Of a stretch of 64,000 nucleotides of DNA, positions 2,117 through 55,569 are shown piece by piece. The notes beneath the pieces are model-generated. The model did no database searches. It was not told the origin of the DNA and was given only the letters and a program-made list of their open reading frames with translations. The position numbers and the translations under genes are program-made. Origin of the DNA: Eledone cirrhosa (Eukaryota); NCBI GenBank assembly GCA_964016885.1, contig OZ024740.1, positions 231,570,001 to 231,634,000 of the forward strand, written 5' to 3'. Every line of letters starts with the position of its first letter. Position 1 is the stretch's first letter.

Positions 2117-2200
2117 TCATATATATTGTCTGATGAGGACGTACTGAAAAAACAACACAGTACCTTTGAAATATATATAATAAAGTATATATTTTGATTA
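2117..2200 (+). ncRNA. Degenerate type I hammerhead-like motif in a ~300-bp element (1936-2236) between (TA)n tracts
   Basis: CTGATGA at 2130-2136, helix II GTACTG/CAGTAC, GAAA at 2168-2171, helix III ATATATAT/GTATATAT; helix I pairs poorly. Confidence 0.45.
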
Positions 2201-9199: not shown

Positions 9200-9585
9200 T
9201 ATATATATACTTCGTTTTTGAATTTGTTTTATTGGAATTTTGTATTTTTAAACATATCTGTATACAGCTATGCTTGAAGCTAAATTATAATTCTATTCTG
9301 TTATAAGTTGAACCAACTTTCATATGCAAATGAGTTTAATCACCTCATTTACACAGATCAGAAAACTATATATTCTCACCTGTTTTCAATCCAGCAGTGC
9401 AAGAGCGGAAGGGATCGTCCTGATGAGAACCAGTTCAGTTCGAAATGCATCGACGATTGTCCCCCTTTCTTCTGCTGGACACCGCCAGGTGGCGATGGCT
9501 GCTGGTGATTGCATAGCTACAGCTTTTTTGAATGTTTATTTATAAACATACCATATTTCTTTAGAAATACAAAAATCCAATACAT
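9200..9585 (+). mobile_element. ~380-bp non-coding element carrying a hammerhead ribozyme; homolog at 42050-42410 (minus)
   Basis: Bounded by (TA)n; shares aatcacctcatttacacaga...gaaaactat and ttgtccccc...ctggac with the reverse complement of 42050-42410. Confidence 0.7.
9414..9457 (+). ncRNA. Minimal type I hammerhead ribozyme (predicted cleavage after AUC, C9451)
   Basis: Helix I ATCGTC/GACGAT; core CTGATGA 9420-9426; helix II GAAC-cagttca-GTTC; GAAA 9442-9445; palindromic helix III ATGCAT. Confidence 0.88.
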
Positions 9586-19724: not shown

Positions 19725-19780
<56 letters not shown>

Positions 19781-19786
<6 letters not shown>

Positions 19787-22700
19787 TAGAATATTCGAAA
19801 ATATTCTGTATGTTTATAATAAACATTTTGAAGACCTAATCGCTATAGAATAGAATACGTCACGTATTACAATTAGATTCTCGATAAAAGCAAGGGAAGT
19901 AATCTACGCGTTTCATTCTTGTTAGAATTCATCAGGACTACATATCCAGTGCTTTTATCGAGAATGACACAGCTAGAGACTTATAGAATACTTAGCTGTG
20001 TACAGGAACTGGTTTGAAAGAGCGGTTGCCGGTCCGGCAGAAATTAGAAATTGGAATAAATGCTCTGAAATAGCGATATATATGTGAATATAGACATAGA
20101 ATATTCGAAAATATTCTGTATGTTTATAATAAACATTTTGAAGACCTAATCGCTATAGAATAGAATACGTCACGTATTACAATTAGATTCTCGATAAAAG
20201 CAAGGGAAGTAATCTACGCGTTTCATTCTTGTTAGAATTCATCAGGACTACATATCCAGTGCTTTTATCGAGAATGACACAGCTAGAGACTTATAGAATA
20301 CTTAGCTGTGTACAGGAACTGGTTTGAAAGAGCGGTTGCCGGTCCGGCAGAAATTAGAAATTGGAATAAATGCTCTGAAATAGCGATATATATGTGAATA
20401 TAGACATAGAATATTCGAAAATATTCTGTATGTTTATAATAAACATTTTGAAGACCTAATCGCTATAGAATAGAATACGTCACGTATTACAATTAGATTC
20501 TCGATAAAAGCAAGGGAAGTAATCTACGCGTTTCATTCTTGTTAGAATTCATCAGGACTACATATCCAGTGCTTTTATCGAGAATGACACAGCTAGAGAC
20601 TTATAGAATACTTAGCTGTGTACAGGAACTGGTTTGAAAGAGCGGTTGCCGGTCCGGCAGAAATTAGAAATTGGAATAAATGCTCTGAAATAGCGATATA
20701 TATGTGAATATAGACATAGAATATTCGAAAATATTCTGTATGTTTATAATAAACATTTTGAAGACCTAATCGCTATAGAATAGAATACGTCACGTATTAC
20801 AATTAGATTCTCGATAAAAGCAAGGGAAGTAATCTACGCGTTTCATTCTTGTTAGAATTCATCAGGACTACATATCCAGTGCTTTTATCGAGAATGACAC
20901 AGCTAGAGACTTATAGAATACTTAGCTGTGTACAGGAACTGGTTTGAAAGAGCGGTTGCCGGTCCGGCAGAAATTAGAAATTGGAATAAATGCTCTGAAA
21001 TAGCGATATATATGTGAATATAGACATAGAATATTCGAAAATATTCTGTATGTTTATAATAAACATTTTGAAGACCTAATCGCTATAGAATAGAATACGT
21101 CACGTATTACAATTAGATTCTCGATAAAAGCAAGGGAAGTAATCTACGCGTTTCATTCTTGTTAGAATTCATCAGGACTACATATCCAGTGCTTTTATCG
21201 AGAATGACACAGCTAGAGACTTATAGAATACTTAGCTGTGTACAGGAACTGGTTTGAAAGAGCGGTTGCCGGTCCGGCAGAAATTAGAAATTGGAATAAA
21301 TGCTCTGAAATAGCGATATATATGTGAATATAGACATAGAATATTCGAAAATATTCTGTATGTTTATAATAAACATTTTGAAGACCTAATCGCTATAGAA
21401 TAGAATACGTCACGTATTACAATTAGATTCTCGATAAAAGCAAGGGAAGTAATCTACGCGTTTCATTCTTGTTAGAATTCATCAGGACTACATATCCAGT
21501 GCTTTTATCGAGAATGACACAGCTAGAGACTTATAGAATACTTAGCTGTGTACAGGAACTGGTTTGAAAGAGCGGTTGCCGGTCCGGCAGAAATTAGAAA
21601 TTGGAATAAATGCTCTGAAATAGCGATATATATGTGAATATAGACATAGAATATTCGAAAATATTCTGTATGTTTATAATAAACATTTTGAAGACCTAAT
21701 CGCTATAGAATAGAATACGTCACGTATTACAATTAGATTCTCGATAAAAGCAAGGGAAGTAATCTACGCGTTTCATTCTTGTTAGAATTCATCAGGACTA
21801 CATATCCAGTGCTTTTATCGAGAATGACACAGCTAGAGACTTATAGAATACTTAGCTGTGTACAGGAACTGGTTTGAAAGAGCGGTTGCCGGTCCGGCAG
21901 AAATTAGAAATTGGAATAAATGCTCTGAAATAGCGATATATATGTGAATATAGACATAGAATATTCGAAAATATTCTGTATGTTTATAATAAACATTTTG
22001 AAGACCTAATCGCTATAGAATAGAATACGTCACGTATTACAATTAGATTCTCGATAAAAGCAAGGGAAGTAATCTACGCGTTTCATTCTTGTTAGAATTC
22101 ATCAGGACTACATATCCAGTGCTTTTATCGAGAATGACACAGCTAGAGACTTATAGAATACTTAGCTGTGTACAGGAACTGGTTTGAAAGAGCGGTTGCC
22201 GGTCCGGCAGAAATTAGAAATTGGAATAAATGCTCTGAAATAGCGATATATATGTGAATATAGACATAGAATATTCGAAAATATTCTGTATGTTTATAAT
22301 AAACATTTTGAAGACCTAATCGCTATAGAATAGAATACGTCACGTATTACAATTAGATTCTCGATAAAAGCAAGGGAAGTAATCTACGCGTTTCATTCTT
22401 GTTAGAATTCATCAGGACTACATATCCAGTGCTTTTATCGAGAATGACACAGCTAGAGACTTATAGAATACTTAGCTGTGTACAGGAACTGGTTTGAAAG
22501 AGCGGTTGCCGGTCCGGCAGAAATTAGAAATTGGAATAAATGCTCTGAAATAGCGATATATATGTGAATATAGACATAGAATATTCGAAAATATTCTGTA
22601 TGTTTATAATAAACATTTTGAAGACCTAATCGCTATAGAATAGAATACGTCACGTATTACAATTAGATTCTCGATAAAAGCAAGGGAAGTAATCTACGCG

Positions 22701-25700
22701 TTTCATTCTTGTTAGAATTCATCAGGACTACATATCCAGTGCTTTTATCGAGAATGACACAGCTAGAGACTTATAGAATACTTAGCTGTGTACAGGAACT
22801 GGTTTGAAAGAGCGGTTGCCGGTCCGGCAGAAATTAGAAATTGGAATAAATGCTCTGAAATAGCGATATATATGTGAATATAGACATAGAATATTCGAAA
22901 ATATTCTGTATGTTTATAATAAACATTTTGAAGACCTAATCGCTATAGAATAGAATACGTCACGTATTACAATTAGATTCTCGATAAAAGCAAGGGAAGT
23001 AATCTACGCGTTTCATTCTTGTTAGAATTCATCAGGACTACATATCCAGTGCTTTTATCGAGAATGACACAGCTAGAGACTTATAGAATACTTAGCTGTG
23101 TACAGGAACTGGTTTGAAAGAGCGGTTGCCGGTCCGGCAGAAATTAGAAATTGGAATAAATGCTCTGAAATAGCGATATATATGTGAATATAGACATAGA
23201 ATATTCGAAAATATTCTGTATGTTTATAATAAACATTTTGAAGACCTAATCGCTATAGAATAGAATACGTCACGTATTACAATTAGATTCTCGATAAAAG
23301 CAAGGGAAGTAATCTAAGCGTTTCATTCTTGTTAGAATTCATCAGGACTACATATCCAGTGCTTTTATCGAGAATGACACAGCTAGAGACTTATAGAATA
23401 CTTAGCTGTGTACAGGAACTGGTTTGAAAGAGCGGTTGCCGGTCCGGCAGAAATTAGAAATTGGAATAAATGCTCTGAAATAGCGATATATATGTGAATA
23501 TAGACATAGAATATTCGAAAATATTCTGTATGTTTATAATAAACATTTTGAAGACCTAATCGCTATAGAATAGAATACGTCACGTATTACAATTAGATTC
23601 TCGATAAAAGCAAGGGAAGTAATCTACGCGTTTCATTCTTGTTAGAATTCATCAGGACTACATATCCAGTGCTTTTATCGAGAATGACACAGCTAGAGAC
23701 TTATAGAATACTTAGCTGTGTACAGGAACTGGTTTGAAAGAGCGGTTGCCGGTCCGGCAGAAATTAGAAATTGGAATAAATGCTCTGAAATAGCGATATA
23801 TATGTGAATATAGACATAGAATATTCGAAAATATTCTGTATGTTTATAATAAACATTTTGAAGACCTAATCGCTATAGAATAGAATACGTCACGTATTAC
23901 AATTAGATTCTCGATAAAAGCAAGGGAAGTAATCTACGCGTTTCATTCTTGTTAGAATTCATCAGGACTACATATCCAGTGCTTTTATCGAGAATGACAC
24001 AGCTAGAGACTTATAGAATACTTAGCTGTGTACAGGAACTGGTTTGAAAGAGCGGTTGCCGGTCCGGCAGAAATTAGAAATTGGAATAAATGCTCTGAAA
24101 TAGCGATATATATGTGAATATAGACATAGAATATTCGAAAATATTCTGTATGTTTATAATAAACATTTTGAAGACCTAATCGCTATAGAATAGAATACGT
24201 CACGTATTACAATTAGATTCTCGATAAAAGCAAGGGAAGTAATCTACGCGTTTCATTCTTGTTAGAATTCATCAGGACTACATATCCAGTGCTTTTATCG
24301 AGAATGACACAGCTAGAGACTTATAGAATACTTAGCTGTGTACAGGAACTGGTTTGAAAGAGCGGTTGCCGGTCCGGCAGAAATTAGAAATTGGAATAAA
24401 TGCTCTGAAATAGCGATATATATGTGAATATAGACATAGAATATTCGAAAATATTCTGTATGTTTATAATAAACATTTTGAAGACCTAATCGCTATAGAA
24501 TAGAATACGTCACGTATTACAATTAGATTCTCGATAAAAGCAAGGGAAGTAATCTACGCGTTTCATTCTTGTTAGAATTCATCAGGACTACATATCCAGT
24601 GCTTTTATCGAGAATGACACAGCTAGAGACTTATAGAATACTTAGCTGTGTACAGGAACTGGTTTGAAAGAGCGGTTGCCGGTCCGGCAGAAATTAGAAA
24701 TTGGAATAAATGCTCTGAAATAGCGATATATATGTGAATATAGACATAGAATATTCGAAAATATTCTGTATGTTTATAATAAACATTTTGAAGACCTAAT
24801 CGCTATAGAATAGAATACGTCACGTATTACAATTAGATTCTCGATAAAAGCAAGGGAAGTAATCTACGCGTTTCATTCTTGTTAGAATTCATCAGGACTA
24901 CATATCCAGTGCTTTTATCGAGAATGACACAGCTAGAGACTTATAGAATACTTAGCTGTGTACAGGAACTGGTTTGAAAGAGCGGTTGCCGGTCCGGCAG
25001 AAATTAGAAATTGGAATAAATGCTCTGAAATAGCGATATATATGTGAATATAGACATAGAATATTCGAAAATATTCTGTATGTTTATAATAAACATTTTG
25101 AAGACCTAATCGCTATAGAATAGAATACGTCACGTATTACAATTAGATTCTCGATAAAAGCAAGGGAAGTAATCTACGCGTTTCATTCTTGTTAGAATTC
25201 ATCAGGACTACATATCCAGTGCTTTTATCGAGAATGACACAGCTAGAGACTTATAGAATACTTAGCTGTGTACAGGAACTGGTTTGAAAGAGCGGTTGCC
25301 GGTCCGGCAGAAATTAGAAATTGGAATAAATGCTCTGAAATAGCGATATATATGTGAATATAGACATAGAATATTCGAAAATATTCTGTATGTTTATAAT
25401 AAACATTTTGAAGACCTAATCGCTATAGAATAGAATACGTCACGTATTACAATTAGATTCTCGATAAAAGCAAGGGAAGTAATCTACGCGTTTCATTCTT
25501 GTTAGAATTCATCAGGACTACATATCCAGTGCTTTTATCGAGAATGACACAGCTAGAGACTTATAGAATACTTAGCTGTGTACAGGAACTGGTTTGAAAG
25601 AGCGGTTGCCGGTCCGGCAGAAATTAGAAATTGGAATAAATGCTCTGAAATAGCGATATATATGTGAATATAGACATAGAATATTCGAAAATATTCTGTA

Positions 25701-28700
25701 TGTTTATAATAAACATTTTGAAGACCTAATCGCTATAGAATAGAATACGTCACGTATTACAATTAGATTCTCGATAAAAGCAAGGGAAGTAATCTACGCG
25801 TTTCATTCTTGTTAGAATTCATCAGGACTACATATCCAGTGCTTTTATCGAGAATGACACAGCTAGAGACTTATAGAATACTTAGCTGTGTACAGGAACT
25901 GGTTTGAAAGAGCGGTTGCCGGTCCGGCAGAAATTAGAAATTGGAATAAATGCTCTGAAATAGCGATATATATGTGAATATAGACATAGAATATTCGAAA
26001 ATATTCTGTATGTTTATAATAAACATTTTGAAGACCTAATCGCTATAGAATAGAATACGTCACGTATTACAATTAGATTCTCGATAAAAGCAAGGGAAGT
26101 AATCTACGCGTTTCATTCTTGTTAGAATTCATCAGGACTACATATCCAGTGCTTTTATCGAGAATGACACAGCTAGAGACTTATAGAATACTTAGCTGTG
26201 TACAGGAACTGGTTTGAAAGAGCGGTTGCCGGTCCGGCAGAAATTAGAAATTGGAATAAATGCTCTGAAATAGCGATATATATGTGAATATAGACATAGA
26301 ATATTCGAAAATATTCTGTATGTTTATAATAAACATTTTGAAGACCTAATCGCTATAGAATAGAATACGTCACGTATTACAATTAGATTCTCGATAAAAG
26401 CAAGGGAAGTAATCTACGCGTTTCATTCTTGTTAGAATTCATCAGGACTACATATCCAGTGCTTTTATCGAGAATGACACAGCTAGAGACTTATAGAATA
26501 CTTAGCTGTGTACAGGAACTGGTTTGAAAGAGCGGTTGCCGGTCCGGCAGAAATTAGAAATTGGAATAAATGCTCTGAAATAGCGATATATATGTGAATA
26601 TAGACATAGAATATTCGAAAATATTCTGTATGTTTATAATAAACATTTTGAAGACCTAATCGCTATAGAATAGAATACGTCACGTATTACAATTAGATTC
26701 TCGATAAAAGCAAGGGAAGTAATCTACGCGTTTCATTCTTGTTAGAATTCATCAGGACTACATATCCAGTGCTTTTATCGAGAATGACACAGCTAGAGAC
26801 TTATAGAATACTTAGCTGTGTACAGGAACTGGTTTGAAAGAGCGGTTGCCGGTCCGGCAGAAATTAGAAATTGGAATAAATGCTCTGAAATAGCGATATA
26901 TATGTGAATATAGACATAGAATATTCGAAAATATTCTGTATGTTTATAATAAACATTTTGAAGACCTAATCGCTATAGAATAGAATACGTCACGTATTAC
27001 AATTAGATTCTCGATAAAAGCAAGGGAAGTAATCTACGCGTTTCATTCTTGTTAGAATTCATCAGGACTACATATCCAGTGCTTTTATCGAGAATGACAC
27101 AGCTAGAGACTTATAGAATACTTAGCTGTGTACAGGAACTGGTTTGAAAGAGCGGTTGCCGGTCCGGCAGAAATTAGAAATTGGAATAAATGCTCTGAAA
27201 TAGCGATATATATGTGAATATAGACATAGAATATTCGAAAATATTCTGTATGTTTATAATAAACATTTTGAAGACCTAATCGCTATAGAATAGAATACGT
27301 CACGTATTACAATTAGATTCTCGATAAAAGCAAGGGAAGTAATCTACGCGTTTCATTCTTGTTAGAATTCATCAGGACTACATATCCAGTGCTTTTATCG
27401 AGAATGACACAGCTAGAGACTTATAGAATACTTAGCTGTGTACAGGAACTGGTTTGAAAGAGCGGTTGCCGGTCCGGCAGAAATTAGAAATTGGAATAAA
27501 TGCTCTGAAATAGCGATATATATGTGAATATAGACATAGAATATTCGAAAATATTCTGTATGTTTATAATAAACATTTTGAAGACCTAATCGCTATAGAA
27601 TAGAATACGTCACGTATTACAATTAGATTCTCGATAAAAGCAAGGGAAGTAATCTACGCGTTTCATTCTTGTTAGAATTCATCAGGACTACATATCCAGT
27701 GCTTTTATCGAGAATGACACAGCTAGAGACTTATAGAATACTTAGCTGTGTACAGGAACTGGTTTGAAAGAGCGGTTGCCGGTCCGGCAGAAATTAGAAA
27801 TTGGAATAAATGCTCTGAAATAGCGATATATATGTGAATATAGACATAGAATATTCGAAAATATTCTGTATGTTTATAATAAACATTTTGAAGACCTAAT
27901 CGCTATAGAATAGAATACGTCACGTATTACAATTAGATTCTCGATAAAAGCAAGGGAAGTAATCTACGCGTTTCATTCTTGTTAGAATTCATCAGGACTA
28001 CATATCCAGTGCTTTTATCGAGAATGACACAGCTAGAGACTTATAGAATACTTAGCTGTGTACAGGAACTGGTTTGAAAGAGCGGTTGCCGGTCCGGCAG
28101 AAATTAGAAATTGGAATAAATGCTCTGAAATAGCGATATATATGTGAATATAGACATAGAATATTCGAAAATATTCTGTATGTTTATAATAAACATTTTG
28201 AAGACCTAATCGCTATAGAATAGAATACGTCACGTATTACAATTAGATTCTCGATAAAAGCAAGGGAAGTAATCTACGCGTTTCATTCTTGTTAGAATTC
28301 ATCAGGACTACATATCCAGTGCTTTTATCGAGAATGACACAGCTAGAGACTTATAGAATACTTAGCTGTGTACAGGAACTGGTTTGAAAGAGCGGTTGCC
28401 GGTCCGGCAGAAATTAGAAATTGGAATAAATGCTCTGAAATAGCGATATATATGTGAATATAGACATAGAATATTCGAAAATATTCTGTATGTTTATAAT
28501 AAACATTTTGAAGACCTAATCGCTATAGAATAGAATACGTCACGTATTACAATTAGATTCTCGATAAAAGCAAGGGAAGTAATCTACGCGTTTCATTCTT
28601 GTTAGAATTCATCAGGACTACATATCCAGTGCTTTTATCGAGAATGACACAGCTAGAGACTTATAGAATACTTAGCTGTGTACAGGAACTGGTTTGAAAG

Positions 28701-28860
28701 AGCGGTTGCCGGTCCGGCAGAAATTAGAAATTGGAATAAATGCTCTGAAATAGCGATATATATGTGAATATAGACATAGAATATTCGAAAATATTCTGTA
28801 TGTTTATAATAAACATTTTGAAGACCTAATCGCTATAGAATAGAATACGTCACGTATTAC
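19781..28860 (-). mobile_element. Left arm of a retrozyme-like array: ~29.3 head-to-tail 310-bp units, one hammerhead per complete unit on the minus strand
   Basis: tagacataga recurs every 310 bp from 19781; units essentially identical; starts directly after (TA)n. Confidence 0.92.
19899..19941 (-). ncRNA. Minimal type I hammerhead (first of 29 in the left arm, period 310 bp)
   Basis: Minus strand: GUAGUC-CUGAUGA-AUUCU-aaca-AGAAU-GAAA-CGC-GUA-GAUUAC. Confidence 0.9.
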
Positions 28861-31017
28861 CGGACCGGCAACCGCTCTTTCAAACCAGTTCCTGTACACA
28901 GCTAAGTATTCTATAAGTCTCTAGCTGTGTCATTCTCGATAAAAGCACTGGATATGTAGTCCTGATGAATTCTAACAAGAATGAAACGCGTAGATTACTT
29001 CCCTTGCTTTTATCGAGAATCTAATTGTAATACGTGACGTATTCTATTCTATAGCGATTAGGTCTTCAAAATGTTTATTATAAACATACAGAATATTTTC
29101 GAATATTCTATGTCTATATTCACATATATATCGCTATTTCAGAGCATTTATTCCAATTTCTAATTTCTGCCGGACCGGCAACCGCTCTTTCAAACCAGTT
29201 CCTGTACACAGCTAAGTATTCTATAAGTCTCTAGCTGTGTCATTCTCGATAAAAGCACTGGATATGTAGTCCTGATGAATTCTAACAAGAATGAAACGCG
29301 TAGATTACTTCCCTTGCTTTTATCGAGAATCTAATTGTAATACGTGACGTATTCTATTCTATAGCGATTAGGTCTTCAAAATGTTTATTATAAACATACA
29401 GAATATTTTCGAATATTCTATGTCTATATTCACATATATATCGCTATTTCAGAGCATTTATTCCAATTTCTAATTTCTGCCGGACCGGCAACCGCTCTTT
29501 CAAACCAGTTCCTGTACACAGCTAAGTATTCTATAAGTCTCTAGCTGTGTCATTCTCGATAAAAGCACTGGATATGTAGTCCTGATGAATTCTAACAAGA
29601 ATGAAACGCGTAGATTACTTCCCTTGCTTTTATCGAGAATCTAATTGTAATACGTGACGTATTCTATTCTATAGCGATTAGGTCTTCAAAATGTTTATTA
29701 TAAACATACAGAATATTTTCGAATATTCTATGTCTATATTCACATATATATCGCTATTTCAGAGCATTTATTCCAATTTCTAATTTCTGCCGGACCGGCA
29801 ACCGCTCTTTCAAACCAGTTCCTGTACACAGCTAAGTATTCTATAAGTCTCTAGCTGTGTCATTCTCGATAAAAGCACTGGATATGTAGTCCTGATGAAT
29901 TCTAACAAGAATGAAACGCGTAGATTACTTCCCTTGCTTTTATCGAGAATCTAATTGTAATACGTGACGTATTCTATTCTATAGCGATTAGGTCTTCAAA
30001 ATGTTTATTATAAACATACAGAATATTTTCGAATATTCTATGTCTATATTCACATATATATCGCTATTTCAGAGCATTTATTCCAATTTCTAATTTCTGC
30101 CGGACCGGCAACCGCTCTTTCAAACCAGTTCCTGTACACAGCTAAGTATTCTATAAGTCTCTAGCTGTGTCATTCTCGATAAAAGCACTGGATATGTAGT
30201 CCTGATGAATTCTAACAAGAATGAAACGCGTAGATTACTTCCCTTGCTTTTATCGAGAATCTAATTGTAATACGTGACGTATTCTATTCTATAGCGATTA
30301 GGTCTTCAAAATGTTTATTATAAACATACAGAATATTTTCGAATATTCTATGTCTATTTTCACATATATATCGCTATTTCAGAGCATTTATTCCAATTTC
30401 TAATTTCTGCCGGACCGGCAACCGCTCTTTCAAACCAGTTCCTGTACACAGCTAAGTATTCTATAAGTCTCTAGCTGTGTCATTCTCGATAAAAGCACTG
30501 GATATGTAGTCCTGATGAATTCTAACAAGAATGAAACGCGTAGATTACTTCCCTTGCTTTTATCGAGAATCTAATTGTAATACGTGACGTATTCTATTCT
30601 ATAGCGATTAGGTCTTCAAAATGTTTATTATAAACATACAGAATATTTTCGAATATTCTATGTCTATATTCACATATATATCGCTATTTCAGAGCATTTA
30701 TTCCAATTTCTAATTTCTGCCGGACCGGCAACCGCTCTTTCAAACCAGTTCCTGTACACAGCTAAGTATTCTATAAGTCTCTAGCTGTGTCATTCTCGAT
30801 AAAAGCACTGGATATGTAGTCCTGATGAATTCTAACAAGAATGAAACGCGTAGATTACTTCCCTTGCTTTTATCGAGAATCTAATTGTAATACGTGACGT
30901 ATTCTATTCTATAGCGATTAGGTCTTCAAAATGTTTATTATAAACATACAGAATATTTTCGAATATTCTATGTCTATATTCACATATATATCGCTATTTC
31001 AGAGCATTTATTCCAAT
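28861..31017 (+). mobile_element. Right (inverted) arm of the 310-bp array: ~7 units, hammerheads on the plus strand
   Basis: Abrupt switch at cacgtattac|cggaccggca to the reverse complement of the unit; ends ttccaat into (TA)n. Confidence 0.92.
28956..28998 (+). ncRNA. Minimal type I hammerhead (first of 7 in the right arm); predicted cleavage after GUA, A28992
   Basis: Helix I GTAGTC/GATTAC, core CTGATGA 28962-28968, helix II ATTCT/AGAAT, GAAA 28983-28986, palindromic helix III ACGCGT. Outer stem ATTCTCGATAAAAGCA/TGCTTTTATCGAGAAT. Confidence 0.92.
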
Positions 31018-35808: not shown

Positions 35809-36188
<380 letters not shown>

Positions 36189-39148
36189 TTTACTAGATTT
36201 CTATAAGAATATAACAATTTTGTCACTACTTTAAAACAATAGCTTACGGTCTTCAAAATGCTTTTAATTAAGCATAAAGTGTATTGCAAAATACATTATA
36301 TATACATCCATATATATATTGCTATTTCAGAGCTCCAATTCTAATTTTTAATTTCTGCCTGACCAACAACGCTCTGCATAATCAGCTCCTGATTATTTAC
36401 TAGATTTCTATAAGAATATAACATCAATGAACTCAGTAAACAGGTGGGGTGTTTGGCCTTGATAAGCTTCAACCAAAGCGAAACAAGTCTTGTCGGCTTA
36501 TCTCCCCTGTTTGCTGAGATCAAAGTGAGTGAATTTGTCACTACTTTAAAACAATAGCTTACGGTCTTCAAAATGCTTTTCATCAAGCATAAAGTGTATT
36601 GCAAAATACATTATATATACATCCATATATATATTGCTATTTCAGAGCTCCAATTCTAATCTTTAATTTCTGCCTGACCAACAACCGCTCTGCATAATCA
36701 GCTCCTGATTATTTATTAGATTTCTATAAGAATATAACATCAATGATCTCAGTAAACAGGTGGGGTAGTTGGCCTTGATAAGCTTCAATCAAAGCGAAAC
36801 AAGTCTTGTCGGCTTATCTCCCCTGTTTGCTGAGATCAAAGTGAGTGAATTTGTCACTACTTTAAAACAATAGCTTACGGTCTTCAAAATGCTTTTCATC
36901 AAGCATAAAGTGTATTGCAAAATACATTATATATACATCCATATATATATTGCTATTTCAGAGCTCCAATTCTAATCTTTAATTTCTGCCTGACCAACAA
37001 CCGCTCTGCATAATCAGCTCCTGATTATTTATTAGATTTCTATAAGAATATAACATCAATGATCTCAGTAAACAGGTGGGGTAGTTGGCCTTGATAAGCT
37101 TCAATCAAAGCGAAACAAGTCTTGTCGGCTTATCTCCCCTGTTTGCTGAGATCAAAGTGAGTGAATTTGTCACTACTTTAAAACAATAGCTTACGGTCTT
37201 CAAAATGCTTTTCATCAAGCATAAAGTGTATTGCAAAATACATTATATATACATCCATATATATATTGCTATTTCAGAGCTCCAATTCTAATCTTTAATT
37301 TCTGCCTGACCAACAACCGCTCTGCATAATCAGCTCCTGATTATTTATTAGATTTCTATAAGAATATAACATCAATGATCTCAGTAAACAGGTGGGGTAG
37401 TTGGCCTTGATAAGCTTCAACCAAAGCGAAACAAGTCTTGTCGGCTTATCTCCCCTGTTTGCTGAGATCAAAGTGAGTGAATTTGTCACTACTTTAAAAC
37501 AATAGCTTACGGTCTTCAAAATGCTTTTAATTAAGCATAAAGTGTATTGCAAAATACATTATATATACATCCATATATATATTGCTATTTCAGAGCTCCA
37601 ATTCTAATTTTTAATTTCTGCCTGACCAACAACCGCTCTGCATAATCAGCTCCATATTATTTACTAGATTTCTATAAGAATATAACATCAATGATCTCAG
37701 TAAACAGGTGGGGTAGTTGGCCTTGATAAGCTTCAATCAAAGCGAAACAAGTCTTGTCGGCTTATCTCCCGTTTGCTGAGATCAAAGTGAGTGAATTTGT
37801 CACTACTTTAAAACAATAGCTTACGGTCTTCAAAATGCTTTTCATCAAGCATAAAGTGTATTGCAAAATACATTATATATACATCCATATATATATTGCT
37901 ATTTCAGAGCTCCAATTCTAATCTTTAATTTCTGCCTGACCAACAACCGCTCTGCATAATCAGCTCCTGATTATTTATTAGATTTCTATAAGAATATAAC
38001 ATCAATGATCTCAGTAAACAGGTGGGGTAGTTGGCCTTGATAAGCTTCAATCAAAGCGAAACAAGTCTTGTCGGCTTATCTCCCCTGTTTGCTGAGATCA
38101 AAGTGAGTGAATTTGTCACTACTTTAAAACAATAGCTTACGGTCTTCAAAATGCTTTTCATCAAGCATAAAGTGTATTGCAAAATACATTATATATACAT
38201 CCATATATATATTGCTATTTCAGAGCTCCAATTCTAATCTTTAATTTCTGCCTGACCAACAACCGCTCTGCATAATCAGCTCCTGATTATTTATTAGATT
38301 TCTATAAGAATATAACATCAATGATCTCAGTAAACAGGTGGGGTAGTTGGCCTTGATAAGCTTCAATCAAAGCGAAACAAGTCTTGTCGGCTTATCTCCC
38401 CTGTTTGCTGAGATCAAAGTGAGTGAATTTGTCACTACTTTAAAACAATAGCTTACGGTCTTCAAAATGCTTTTCATCAAGCATAAAGTGTATTGCAAAA
38501 TACATTATATATACATCCATATATATATTGCTATTTCAGAGCTCCAATTCTAATCTTTAATTTCTGCCTGACCAACAACCGCTCTGCATAATCAGCTCCT
38601 GATTATTTATTAGATTTCTATAAGAATATAACATCAATGATCTCAGTAAACAGGTGGGGTAGTTGGCCTTGATAAGCTTCAATCAAAGCGAAACAAGTCT
38701 TGTCGGCTTATCTCCCCTGTTTGCTGAGATCAAAGTGAGTGAATTTGTCACTACTTTAAAACAATAGCTTACGGTCTTCAAAATGCTTTTCATCAAGCAT
38801 AAAGTGTATTGCAAAATACATTATATATACATCCATATATATATTGCTATTTCAGAGCTCCAATTCTAATCTTTAATTTCTGCCTGACCAACAACCGCTC
38901 TGCATAATCAGCTCCTGATTATTTATTAGATTTCTATAAGAATATAACATCAATGATCTCAGTAAACAGGTGGGGTAGTTGGCCTTGATAAGCTTCAACC
39001 AAAGCGAAACAAGTCTTGTCGGCTTATCTCCCCTGTTTGCTGAGATCAAAGTGAGTGAATTTGTCACTACTTTAAAACAATAGCTTACGGTCTTCAAAAT
39101 GCTTTTAATTAAGCATAAAGTGTATTGCAAAATACATTATATATACAT

Positions 39149-39152
<4 letters not shown>
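36189..39152 (+). mobile_element. Right arm of the 316-bp array: one internally deleted unit plus 9 hammerhead-bearing units
   Basis: tgctatttcagagc at 36951, 37267, etc. (period 316); ends catcc into (TA)n; shares blocks with the 310-bp unit. Confidence 0.92.
36771..36814 (+). ncRNA. Type I hammerhead with a U3-A8 variant core (representative of 10 copies)
   Basis: GGCC-TTGATAA-GCTT-caatca-AAGC-GAAACAA-gtc-TTGTC-GGCT; outer stem GATCTCAGTAAACAGG/CCTGTTTGCTGAGATC. Confidence 0.85.
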
Positions 39153-39182
<30 letters not shown>

Positions 39183-39187
<5 letters not shown>

Positions 39188-39326
39188 AACGAGTAGGACC
39201 CCGACGGCTGAGCTCAAGCCGTTTAGACGGCTAATTCTGGACTGAATTAGCCGTCGAAACGGCTTGAACTCAGCCGTCGGGGTCCTACTTGTTCCTATTA
39301 CCTACTCTACTACCACATTTCTTCCG

Positions 39327-39408
<82 letters not shown>

Positions 39409-49872: not shown

Positions 49873-50075
49873 TTTTCAGCCGACCCTCGTACATTCGCAT
49901 TAATTGTTAGCTTTTACGATATTGTTGTAGTCAGTCCCGATGATGAGTGTTTCATGTATGTATAAATAAATGTTGACGGCTACAAGAAAAATTCTCCTTA
50001 CATGCGTACTTACCATTCTCTGTTACACAGAGATTGTCACTTGACGGTCATCTTTTATTATTATAACACATATAA

Positions 50076-50666
50076 CGGCGGGGATTGGCAGTATCGGTAG
50101 AGGGTCGGACATCATGCTTTGCAGCATAGAGTTACGGCGCTTTACGATCTGAGTTCAAATCCCGCCGAGGTTAACTTTGCCTTTCATCCTTACGGGGTCG
50201 ATAAAATAAAGTGACGCACTGGGGTCGATTTAATCGATTTTCCCCACCCCCAAAATTGCTGGCCTTGTGCCTATATAAGAATGGATTGGCAGTATCGGTA
50301 GAGGGTCGGACGCCATGCTTTGACGTATAGAGTTACGGTCCTTGCCATTCTGAGTTCAAATCCCGCCGAGGTTAACTTTGCCTTTCATCCTTACGGGGTC
50401 GATAAAATAAAGTACCAGTAATGCACTGGGTTATTGCTGGCCTTGTGCCAATAGTAGAAACAATTATGACACATATAGGGCGGTGGATTTGGCAGAATCG
50501 TTATAGCGTCGGAGAACATGCTTCGCGGCATACTTACGTCCCTTTATGTTCTGAGTTCGAATCCCACCGAGGTTAGATTTGCCTTACGGGGTCGATAAAA
50601 TAAAGCACCAGTAATGCACTGAGTCGATTTAATCGACTCCCCCCCCCCTCAAATTACTGGCCTTGT
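50076..50666 (+). mobile_element. Three tandem tRNA-derived SINEs
   Basis: Heads at ~50076, ~50282 and ~50478, each with the B-box and conserved core. Confidence 0.88.
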
Positions 50667-50667
50667 A

Positions 50668-51098
50668 TATATACAGTGTATTTTGCAATACACTGTATTT
50701 AATTAAGCATACAGTGTATTGCAAAATACACTGTATATACATTCATATATATATAGCTATTTCAGAGCACCAATTCTAATTTTCAATTTCTGCTTGACCG
50801 GCAACCGCTCTATATAATCAGTTCCTGATTATTTACTAGAATTCTATAAGAACCAAACATCCATGATTTCAGCAAACAGGAGGAGTAGTTGGCTTTGATA
50901 AGCATCAATAAATGCGAAACAATGCCTTGTCAGCTTTATCTCCCCCTGTTTGCTGGAAATTAAAGTAAGTGAGTCGGTCACTACTCTAAAACAATAGCAT
51001 AAGGTCTTCGAAATGCTTTTAATTAAGCATACAGTGTATTGCAAAATACACTATATATACATTCATATATATATATAGCTATTTCAGAGCACCAATTC

Positions 51099-51105
<7 letters not shown>
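50668..51105 (+). mobile_element. Diverged ~1.3-unit member of the 316-bp family with a short 5' inversion
   Basis: Aligns to the 316-bp unit; palindrome at 50668-50738; ends ccaattctaatttt into (TA)n. Confidence 0.85.
50891..50935 (+). ncRNA. U3-A8 hammerhead with compensatory stem changes
   Basis: GGCT-TTGATAA-GCAT-caataa-ATGC-GAAACAA-tgcc-TTGTC-AGCT. Confidence 0.85.
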
Positions 51106-51184
<79 letters not shown>

Positions 51185-51439: not shown

Positions 51440-51496
51440 AATAAATTCTATATACCCGCATTTCCATTTCGTTAATTTTTTCTCCATATATATATA

Positions 51497-51676
51497 TAAC
51501 GAAGGAGTTGTGGTAAGGAACCAGATGGACCATAATGCACCAGGTACTCAATACTTAGGGTAGTAGAGTGGGTAATAGGAAAAAGTATGACCCCGACGGC
51601 AGATTCAAGCCGTTTCGACAGAAATAGCCATCGAAACGGCTTGAGCTCTGCCGTCCGGATCATACTTTTTCCTATA
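51497..51676 (-). mobile_element. Diverged copy of the ~200-bp fold-back family
   Basis: taacgaagga...cttagggtagtagagtgggtaatagg...cctatata. Confidence 0.8.
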
Positions 51677-51678
51677 TA

Positions 51679-51756
<78 letters not shown>

Positions 51757-52114: not shown

Positions 52115-52503
52115 TAAAATAATTGTTTCTACTTTTGGCACAAGGCCAGCAATTATCTCAGTTTATTACTGGTACTTTATTTTATCGCTCATATGACTGT
52201 AAGGATGAAAGACAAAGTTAACCTTGGCGGAATTTGAATTCAGACCATAAAGGGCCGTAACTCTATGCTACAAATAATGGTGTCCGACTCTCTATCGACA
52301 CTGCCAATCTATCGTCCATGTTAAAATAATTGTTTCTACTTTAGGCACAAGGCCAGCAATTATCCAGTGCATTACTGGTACTTTATTTTATCGACCCCGT
52401 AAGGATGAAAGGCAAAGTCAACCTCGGCGGGATTTGAACTCAGATCGTAAAGGGACGTAACTATGGTGGAAAGCATGGCGTCCGACCCTCTACCGATACT
52501 GCA
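52115..52503 (-). mobile_element. Two tandem tRNA-derived SINEs
   Basis: Reverse complement of the 15188 family at ~52118-52310 and ~52326-52503. Confidence 0.85.
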
Positions 52504-53512: not shown

Positions 53513-53517
<5 letters not shown>

Positions 53518-53720
53518 AACGAGTAGGACCCCGACGGCTGAGCTCAAGCCGTTTCGACGGCTAATTCTGGACTAAAAATTCTGGACTAAGAATTAGCCGT
53601 CGAAACGGCTTCAGCTCAGCCGTCGGGGTCCTACTCGTTCCTATTACCCACTCTACTACCCTAAGTATTGAGTACTTTGGTGCGTTATGGTCCACCTGGT
53701 TCCTTACCACATTTCCTTCG

Positions 53721-53722
<2 letters not shown>
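53513..53722 (+). mobile_element. Copy of the ~200-bp fold-back family (in the calmodulin-like intron)
   Basis: Nearly identical to 16272-16478 except at the palindrome centre. Confidence 0.85.
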
Positions 53723-53754
<32 letters not shown>

Positions 53755-54626: not shown

Positions 54627-55264
54627 TCCACTGTGCTTATTCCATGCTTGCTGGACATCTTTTCTCTGGCTTAATCGCTTTGTTCGCTAGTTTTGCAACT
54701 TATATGCATATATATATAAGAAAATGATGGGTTTCTTTTTAAAGAGATGTCCCACACGGGTGAAAGTATAAGGAAAAGTAATTGAAAATGCAACTGGGGT
54801 CTTTTAAGAATATTTATTTACTTATGTTCTTATGATTTTAAAAAGTAAAATTGAGATGGAGGGTTTGTGTTTCTGTTGTGGTTTGTCTCGCATCTCATAT
54901 ATACATATGTATGTATGCGCATGTGCGTATGTTTGTACAAGTGCATCCTACCAATAAAAATACACGCATCAGTTGAGTTTCATTACGCTACTATAATCGG
55001 GCATAAGATTGACGATCTGCATATAGCATTAAATTGAGAGAACCTTTACATATTCACTCGATTTATTAAAAAATAACTTTCCAACATTTCAAGTCAAACC
55101 CTGCATAATATCGTTCTAAATATACCTAAAAACCGGGGTGGTTACAGCTGGAATGTTTGTAGTCATAGGTTTGCTTAATAAAGTCTGACCTAGTATTATA
55201 ACCAACAAGAACATCAACAACGACAATTCTGCTACTATCCAAGACTCAGTACGATCACTCTTAC

Positions 55265-55507
55265 CTTGATAGTTTATTTTACCGTCTCCGTCAAAGTCGG
55301 CCTCTTTGATCATATCCTCCACCTCCTTGTCACTCAGCTTCTCGCCTAAATTCATCATGACGTGACGCAATTCATCAGCATTGATGAAACCGTCTCCATT
55401 CTTGTCGAACACTTTGAAGGCGTCTGTCACTTCCTGCAACTCGTTCGTCTCGGATTGACGTTTTGACATCATAGCCAGGAACTCATTGAACTCTATGGTG
55501 CCGTTAC
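55265..55507 (-). CDS. Calmodulin-like EF-hand protein, internal 243-nt exon (end of EF2 through EF4)
   Basis: cctcag|GTAACGGC...CAAG|gtaag; encodes [16 protein letters not shown]...[52 protein letters not shown]. Boundaries correspond to the conserved calmodulin introns at CDS nt 178 and 421. Upstream exons not found in the window. Confidence 0.93.
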
Positions 55508-55569
55508 CTGAGGATGAAGGAAGGTGGAAGGAGGAGGAAGAAGAGGAGAATGGGTATATGCGTACGTAT

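What the first reader, a model, noticed from the sequence alone, without database searches (positions are those of the whole stretch)
50668..51105. A diverged third locus provides covariation support for the U3-A8 hammerhead
Seen, relative to the 316-bp array: helix II GCUU/AAGC becomes GCAU/AUGC, the core-proximal helix I pair C-G becomes U-A (GGCC/GGCU to GGCU/AGCU), and the helix III loop changes. UUGAUAA, GAAAC and GUC are invariant. Compensatory changes around an invariant core indicate a conserved RNA structure.
Basis: seen in the sequence. Interest (0 to 1): 0.72.

Follow-up and report, generated by a model that had tools for sequence, protein, structure and literature searches.

The report
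Hammerhead retrozyme with switching core pair
This is one copy of a very abundant non-coding jumping repeat whose predicted self-cutting RNA motif keeps its base pairs through many paired changes, including a swap of a core pair, so the motif is likely under selection to cut, although cutting itself is untested and this kind of element is already known.

Summary
In detail: relative to the 316-bp array, helix II U-A becomes A-U and helix I C-G becomes U-A around the same U3-A8 core. The locus is one single-ribozyme insertion of a ~320-bp non-coding repeat with thousands of genomic copies. A larger alignment upholds the covariation (9 of 14 pairs change on both sides in 88 distinct copies, nearly all picked by a flanking box; 11 double changes on a tree built without the core; R-scape not run). 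The core is not invariant: sister subfamilies carry canonical C3-G8. Genome-wide counts are U3-A8 3964, C3-G8 355, mismatched 26 and 30, and the switch maps to two branches (AU p 0.048). A helix III pair that cannot form in a monomer covaries, pointing to dimeric cleavage. This copy carries a private G-to-U change there and is probably a dead end. Insertions show the Penelope footprint (inverted arm, 25-nt tail on one end in 51 of 74, TA targets). Verdict: new member of the known non-LTR retrozymes; U3-A8 is a published variant. The scan noted the same footprint on other octopus retrozymes. A 248-copy lineage with an extra A before G12 is the least expected part.

The parts
50668..50697 (-). 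Short inverted arm (reverse copy of the start of the unit); makes the 50668-50739 hairpin
   Evidence: the hairpin draws sub-threshold miRNA model hits
50698..51017 (+). One full 320-bp unit of the retrozyme-type repeat, no ORF of 120 aa or more
51018..51105 (+). Partial second unit (88 nt), the 3' end of the insertion
51078..51102 (+). 25-nt tail (unit positions 59-83), the Penelope-type extension found on one end of insertions
   Evidence: (loose ends at 50755 and 50780)
51105..51180 (.). (TA)38 microsatellite, likely target site
50867..50958 (+). Extended helix I hairpin enclosing the type I hammerhead
   Evidence: z -5.4; Rfam HH9 at 50878-50953, 20.8 bits, E 0.012, below the gathering score of 52
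50891..50894 (+). Helix I 5' strand GGCU, pairing with 50932-50935
50895..50901 (+). Core strand U3 U G A U A8 A9
50902..50915 (+). Helix II GCAU/AUGC with loop CAAUAA; all four pairs have two-sided changes in the family
50916..50931 (+). GAAA core strand, helix III (50919-50930) and C17; predicted cleavage between 50931 and 50932
   Evidence: numbering from the hammerhead consensus (PMC4209133, PMC3088659)
50923..50923 (+). Private G-to-U change that breaks the helix III palindrome (self-duplex -19.5 to -6.3 kcal/mol)
50698..50827 (+). Part of the unit (together with 50994-51017) shared at about 75-78% with the 310-bp family, which has a non-alignable canonical hammerhead; holds both 3' termini, likely the reverse-transcriptase recognition region
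35916..39160 (+). 316-bp array (sister subfamily): inverted arm 35916-36187 with tail, 9.3 forward units with a short end
19766..31017 (.). 310-bp array (distant relative, canonical C3-G8 hammerhead): 29 units on the minus strand, 7 on the plus strand with tail

Best explanation
The locus is a single-ribozyme insertion of a ~320-bp non-coding repeat with thousands of copies, whose units carry a type I hammerhead motif that is predicted to self-cleave, likely as a dimer, and that is likely copied into TA repeats by a Penelope-like reverse transcriptase. Shown in sequence: the anatomy, the subfamily series, the paired changes, the C3-G8/U3-A8 alternation with few mismatched copies, the two fixed 3' termini and the TA flanks. 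Inferred: tandem source arrays are transcribed; two neighbouring hammerheads share an intermolecular helix III and cut out unit-length RNA, which may be circularised; a borrowed Penelope-type RT/endonuclease nicks TA DNA and starts at two internal sites 25 nt apart, one on each strand, giving an inverted arm plus a forward arm that runs across the cleavage site. Selection acts on RNAs that replicate, so subfamily founders keep the fold while inserted copies such as this one decay. With one ribozyme and a weakened helix III, this copy would not yield a unit-length RNA on its own.
For: Pair states in 179 homologous copies: I.1 UA157/CG15, II.1 GC136/AU28, II.2 CG98/UA74, II.3 AU161/UA11, II.4 CG94/UA70, III.4 GC92/AU53, III.5 AU102/GC57/GU10, core 3-8 UA135/CG31. 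Changes that break a pair: 254 of 445 on tips against 14 of 67 on clades of 3 or more (flank tree). 90 copies picked only by a flanking box show the same. Genome-wide 2x2 with one pattern: C3G8 355, U3A8 3964, C3A8 26, U3G8 30. Two changes of the 3-8 state on a tree without the core. All 7 non-Watson-Crick states held by 8 or more of 179 copies over 23 helix pairs are G.U on the + strand, none A.C. III.5 would close a 2-nt loop in a monomer yet covaries; monomer helix III has pairing probability 0.00 in the two subfamily copies folded. 51 of 74 two-armed insertions have one short and one tailed end; 64 of 74 have (TA)n on a flank against 5% background. Literature: U3-A8 natural and active in vitro (PMC3088659); dimeric type I hammerheads in tandem repeats (PMC4209133, PMC7229834); tail equals the stretch between two RT start sites (PMC11167929).
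Against: No cleavage or RNA data. The monomer's active fold is 4 kcal/mol above the predicted minimum. Rfam score is far below threshold and three related loci gave no hammerhead hit at E up to 1. Events are few (about a dozen), R-scape was not run, and two measures were weak. AU rejection of a single U3-A8 origin is marginal (p 0.048) and the 68 rows were chosen for intact helix II and core. A lineage with an extra A between C11.1 and G12 has 248 copies, others have U.U or A.A at the base of helix II, and one locus holds a tandem deletion derivative with no hammerhead (L077): cis-cleavage may be dispensable at times. In a Penelope element tested in vitro, hammerhead mutants still inserted; 8 of 9 predicted Xenopus retrozymes did not cleave in vitro. 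No autonomous partner with a homologous end was found. The 316 array mixes two unit haplotypes, so it is not a simple read-out of one monomeric circle.
Confidence: 0.8

Rival explanations
1. The fold is kept for reverse-transcriptase binding or RNA stability, not for catalysis; the hammerhead is a mostly idle passenger inherited from a Penelope terminal repeat and the template is an uncleaved multimer.
For: Amplified lineages with a core insertion (248 copies) or helix II base mismatches; 11 of the 30 U3-G8 matches (7 loci, counted by hand) fall in the insertion lineage; hammerhead-less derivative at L077; catalytic mutants of an Anolis Penelope hammerhead did not affect insertion in vitro.
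Against: The 3-8 pair is an isolated core pair, not part of a helix, and it switches in a compensated way on two branches with mismatched states staying at about 1% (56 of 4375); only 2 of 50 internal-branch changes in 50891-50935 hit the ten other core positions, both at C17.
Confidence: 0.12
2. The paired changes arise at the DNA level (template switching or repair in inverted repeats) in a satellite that has no RNA function.
For: The family is rich in palindromes and inverted arms; helix III is a DNA palindrome as well as an RNA duplex.
Against: Seven G.U and no A.C subfamily states on the + strand; covariation of the 3-8 pair and of three separate helices around a conserved single-stranded core; dispersed insertions with fixed termini rather than local amplification only.
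Confidence: 0.04
3. These are truncated ends (pseudo-LTR stumps) of an autonomous Penelope-like element rather than an independent non-autonomous family.
For: Same footprint as Penelope insertions; retrozymes match pseudo-LTRs in Xenopus.
Against: Units join head to tail without coding sequence in every locus inspected; none of 24 tail-bearing loci examined had a retroelement ORF joined upstream; nearby Penelope ORFs have different ends.
Confidence: 0.04

Closest known systems
Metazoan non-LTR retrozymes (Cervera and de la Pena 2020, PMC7229834, parts 2-4 of 6 read; Li et al. bioRxiv 10.64898/2026.07.22.740005, parts 1-3 of 5 read)
   Same: 150-450-bp, low-GC, non-coding tandem units with a type I hammerhead; monomers, dimers and long arrays; dimer-dependent helix III; U.U at the base of helix II also seen in axolotl.
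   Different: U3-A8 core dominates this scaffold and alternates with C3-G8; helix III is a 10-12-nt palindrome rather than 1-2 bp; insertion ends show inverted arms and a tail, which the parts read do not describe for retrozymes; circular RNA is not shown here; this locus has one ribozyme and fails the two-unit 'active' criterion.
U3-A8 hammerhead variants (Perreault et al. 2011, PMC3088659, section on core variation read; Cervera and de la Pena 2014, PMC4209133, parts 1-2 of 4 read: about 1300 hits in Schistosoma mansoni Penelope elements)
   Same: Same compensated core pair, natural and reported active in vitro.
   Different: Here both states occur on one alignable scaffold with genome-wide counts of all four combinations; the S. 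mansoni motifs are minimal hammerheads without helix III.
Endonuclease-bearing Penelope-like elements (Craig et al., bioRxiv 10.1101/2021.04.23.441226, passages; Frangieh et al. 2024, PMC11167929, parts 1-2 of 4 read)
   Same: Inverted 5'-truncated arm, partial tandem, tail on one end, AT-rich or microsatellite targets, hammerhead about 100-170 nt upstream of the RT start sites.
   Different: No ORF; tail 25 nt rather than 30-40; partner element not identified.

Membership tests
Type I hammerhead ribozyme | Core consensus with a Watson-Crick pair at 3-8, GAAA and NUH | tested here: met
   U3-A8 variant, GAAAC, GUC; 3-8 paired in 4319 of 4375 genomic pattern matches
Type I hammerhead ribozyme | Three helices with covariation, helix I open | tested here: met
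Type I hammerhead ribozyme | Rfam gathering score for a hammerhead model | tested here: not met
   No hit at gathering in the window, not even for the canonical 310 array; HH9 20.8 bits against 52
Type I hammerhead ribozyme | Loop 1-loop 2 tertiary contact | not tested
   Loop II CAANNA and a helix I internal loop are present; likeness to the canonical contact is recalled, not tested
Type I hammerhead ribozyme | Self-cleavage 3' of position 17 | not testable with these tools
   needs in vitro transcription
Non-LTR retrozyme | Short non-coding low-GC tandem units, each with a type I hammerhead | tested here: met
   Met by the family: 316-bp array, dimers and a ~17-unit array
Non-LTR retrozyme | [quoted passage not shown] | tested here: not met
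   This locus has 1.3 units and one hammerhead
Non-LTR retrozyme | Expressed as linear and circular unit-length RNA | not testable with these tools
   no run on record as RNA was offered
Penelope-mobilised element | Inverted arm, tail on one end, AT-rich target | tested here: met
   51 of 74 short+tail; 64 of 74 beside (TA)n
Penelope-mobilised element | Autonomous partner with homologous pseudo-LTR in the genome | tested here: inconclusive
   Penelope-type ORFs lie near several copies but share no end sequence in the loci seen; search was a small sample
Autonomous Penelope-like element | RT plus GIY-YIG ORF between pseudo-LTRs | tested here: not met
   no ORF in the unit or joined to 24 tail-bearing loci

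The most novel reading that the evidence does not exclude
The family is a population of circular-RNA replicons whose hammerheads cut each other in mixed dimers: helix I and the palindromic helix III act as lineage-specific docking codes, and the 248-copy lineage with an extra A before G12 (which also spread U3.G8 copies) is a catalytically crippled cheater cleaved in trans by the sibling lineage that shares its helices, the lineage to which this locus belongs.
Probability: 0.15. Interest if true: 0.75.

Novelty: new member of a known kind. Interest (0 to 1): 0.42.

Why it matters
Hammerheads in animal retroelements are mostly inferred, and published tests disagree on whether they are needed (8 of 9 Xenopus candidates did not cleave; a Penelope hammerhead was dispensable for insertion in vitro). 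One scaffold in which the catalytic 3-8 pair flips only as a pair, with a near-complete subfamily series, is natural evidence that the active fold is selected during spreading, and it hands over matched natural variants (C3-G8, U3-A8, core insertion, different helix III palindromes) for direct assays of dimeric and trans cleavage. It is an extension of known biology, not a new kind of system.

Tried and rejected
Rfam at gathering thresholds: nothing in the window. miRNA-model hits at 50664-50745 rejected: they come from the inverted arm hairpin and are far below thresholds. Sequencing runs: no RNA holder listed; only DNA-type contigs of X1 and X4 were laid, which say nothing on expression. Search for the autonomous partner: ORF scan of all loci, extension of three loci with Penelope-type ORFs, tail-plus-(TA)n pattern and 24 loci read upstream: none joined to an ORF. 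Same-strand copies about 3 kb apart (L161, L162) proved to be arrays or nested insertions, not pseudo-LTR pairs. The last exon of the neighbouring EF-hand gene was not located, so intronic position is unproven. R-scape and CMfinder are not available here. Rows dropped: 4 of 183 before (two deleted, two chimeric); 129 of 197 not used for the tree (50 without a parsable core, the rest subsampled or singleton states); this locus is not among the 74 because its inverted arm is under 60 nt. Distal helix I pairs next to the C-run are misaligned between subfamilies (Id.1-3, Id.5) and were left out. Literature searches that found no description of this family or of cephalopod retrozymes; none describing an insertion between C11.1 and G12; most subscription papers are outside the library and no supplements were read (figures S6-S7 of PMC3088659 and S2-S5 of PMC4209133 could hold such variants).

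Full report
Observation. The window is G000:C1:231570001-231634000 of a 3.0-Gb animal assembly; an octopus is likely (inference from size and repeat content; earlier notes on this genome say the same). The finding's coordinates cover one insertion: a 30-nt inverted arm (50668-50697), one 320-bp unit (50698-51017) and 88 nt of a second unit, followed by (TA)38. The hammerhead motif lies at 50891-50935 on the + strand. Rfam finds nothing at gathering scores but its HH9 model lands on 50878-50953 at E 0.012, 20.8 bits.

Family. The 101-nt hammerhead region has 1944 first-look candidates in the genome, the best 40 at 97-100%. A flanking box shared with the 316 and 310 arrays has 18171 exact matches, 880 after excluding those two types. 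Copies fall into subfamilies with helix II GCAU/AUGC (this one), GCUU/AAGC, GCAC/GUGC, GUAC/GUAC, AUAC/GUAU, ACGC/GCGU and others. Copies differ by 4-9% within subfamilies. The window copy has four rare letters against 45 subfamily rows, among them U at 50923 where 43 have G (X1 contigs agree). The 310-bp family shares about 75-78% over the flanks but its canonical hammerhead does not align with this one. Run X4, from another coded organism, holds 316-type and 310-type contigs.

Covariation. In 179 homologous copies (183 found, 4 dropped; some loci were fetched with hammerhead patterns) the second state at each variable pair is again a pair: I.1 UA157/CG15, II.1 GC136/AU28, II.2 CG98/UA74, II.3 AU161/UA11, II.4 CG94/UA70, III.4 GC92/AU53, III.5 AU102/GC57/GU10. 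Changes on tips break pairs in 254 of 445 cases, changes on clades of three or more in 14 of 67 (flank tree; 221 of 345 and 21 of 69 on the all-column tree), as expected if inserted copies decay while founders are selected. On 92 rows (90 picked only by the flanking box, this copy and one array unit; 88 distinct), 94.6% of cells pair against 88.0 +/- 0.4 shuffled, 121 cells change on both sides against 37, score 0.332 against 0.204, slid registers 0.016-0.081; 9 of 14 pairs have a two-sided change, reached by 15 of 500 shuffles, and the number of pair types is not in excess (345 of 500). On a likelihood tree of 68 of 197 copies, chosen for intact helix II and core and built without the core block, 11 double compensatory changes lie on internal branches; re-matching partners at random gives means of 0.41 and 0.65 and never 11 in 5000 and 20000 draws. 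All seven non-Watson-Crick states held by 8 or more copies over 23 helix pairs are G.U on the + strand, which argues for RNA on that strand and against DNA palindrome repair. R-scape was not available.

The core pair. One pattern with only positions 3 and 8 changed gives C3G8 355, U3A8 3964, C3A8 26, U3G8 30, controls 0; independence would give about 350 of each mismatch, though shared ancestry makes this no probability. An older group (1638 matches) shows 77 CG, 16 UA, 4 UG and 3 CA in the first 100 rows (hand count). The tree needs two changes of state; forcing all U3-A8 rows together is rejected only marginally (p-AU 0.048). The 3-8 pair is a core pair whose disruption abolishes cleavage and whose double change partly restores it (PMC11167929; PMC3088659), so its compensated switching is the best sequence evidence for selection on catalysis.

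Dimer. Helix III is self-complementary across subfamilies (ACAAGGCCUUGU, ACAGAGCUCUGU, ACAGGGCCCUGU and odd-length forms). Pair III.5 would close a 2-nt loop in a monomer, yet reads AU58/GC19/GU7/other 2. Predicted monomer helix III pairing is 0.00 in this copy and in a typical subfamily copy; the self-duplex is -19.5 kcal/mol for the typical copy and -6.3 for this one. This fits the dimeric hammerhead described for animal tandem repeats (PMC4209133; PMC7229834). The III.5 change is a single path through G.U on the tree, so it is one line of evidence, not many.

Mobilisation. Of 74 two-armed insertions, 51 have one end near unit position 58 and the other near 83, 3 are tail/tail, 2 short/short and 18 have an irregular end; 64 have 10 nt or more of (TA)n on a flank against 5% background. 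X1 contigs have loose TA ends at 50755 and 50780. This is the Penelope footprint: inverted arm and a tail on one end (10.1101/2021.04.23.441226), the tail being the stretch between two internal RT start sites (PMC11167929). Penelope was proposed as the mobiliser of retrozymes (PMC7229834; Li et al.). Earlier notes of this scan report the same footprint for other octopus retrozymes; I reached it here before reading them, and they are not independent support.

Against and unexplained. A lineage with an extra A between C11.1 and G12 has 248 matches at many loci and with both helix I states; 11 of the 30 U3-G8 matches, in 7 loci, belong to it (hand count), against 13 among the roughly 3700 other U3-A8-type copies. 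The natural insertions listed in the section of PMC3088659 that I read are elsewhere and a search found no description. Old lineages carry U.U or A.A at the base of helix II (U.U is known). L077 is a tandem deletion derivative without a hammerhead. The 316 array alternates two unit haplotypes, so a multimeric template or later DNA-level expansion is needed. These points show that cis-cleavage is not required for every copy, and they motivate the trans-cleavage reading given as the novel case.

Verdict. The element works like, and at family level meets the sequence criteria of, a metazoan non-LTR retrozyme with a published core variant (PMC3088659; PMC4209133). This particular copy has one ribozyme, a weakened helix III, and is likely inert. 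Cleavage, circular RNA and the partner enzyme remain untested. New member of a known kind; interest 0.42.

Noticed in passing
window 55263-55510 (-): Calmodulin-like EF-hand exon (Pfam EF-hand_7 E 2e-16) ending in a splice donor at 55262; the insertion may lie antisense in the following intron, but the last exon was not located.
   Followed up: partly
window 19766-31017: 310-bp array with a canonical hammerhead (palindromic ACGCGU helix III) shares the tail region with this family but has a non-alignable ribozyme half: a possible module swap. It dominates the 18171 box matches.
   Followed up: partly
window 36260-39105: Units of the 316 array come in two haplotypes; the inverted arm and the terminal unit share one, blocks of the other lie between.
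   Followed up: partly
window 9412-9460 (+) and 2122-2190 (+): Two further hammerhead-like motifs of other families: one with a 4-bp helix II and palindromic helix III, one with a long helix II that recurs in L002 and L003.
   Followed up: no
L077:1279-1850: Four tandem 163-bp deletion units that keep the tail region and lack the hammerhead.
   Followed up: no
L015, L249:1000-1100, L018, L101: At least two unrelated U3-A8 hammerhead families exist in this genome, often as inverted pairs.
   Followed up: no
L249:1250-5001: Two-armed Penelope-like (Neptune-like by recall) element with a long-helix-II hammerhead about 130 nt before its TA-flanked end; no sequence likeness to the retrozyme tail.
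   Followed up: partly
window 39186-39330, 51490-51680, 53515-53725: Recurrent palindromic MITE-like element sitting in TA repeats.
   Followed up: no
window 50075-50667 and 52116-52502: Several copies of a SINE-like repeat flank the insertion; the one at 50600-50667 abuts the inverted arm.
   Followed up: no
window 50999 and 50755: These two positions, which flank a predicted stem closing the RT-start region, vary together across subfamilies (G with C, A with A, U with U), only one state being complementary (by eye).
   Followed up: no
L161:459-5956: An old array of about 17 units, 85-90% identical to the window unit, shows that arrays of this family persist and decay.
   Followed up: no
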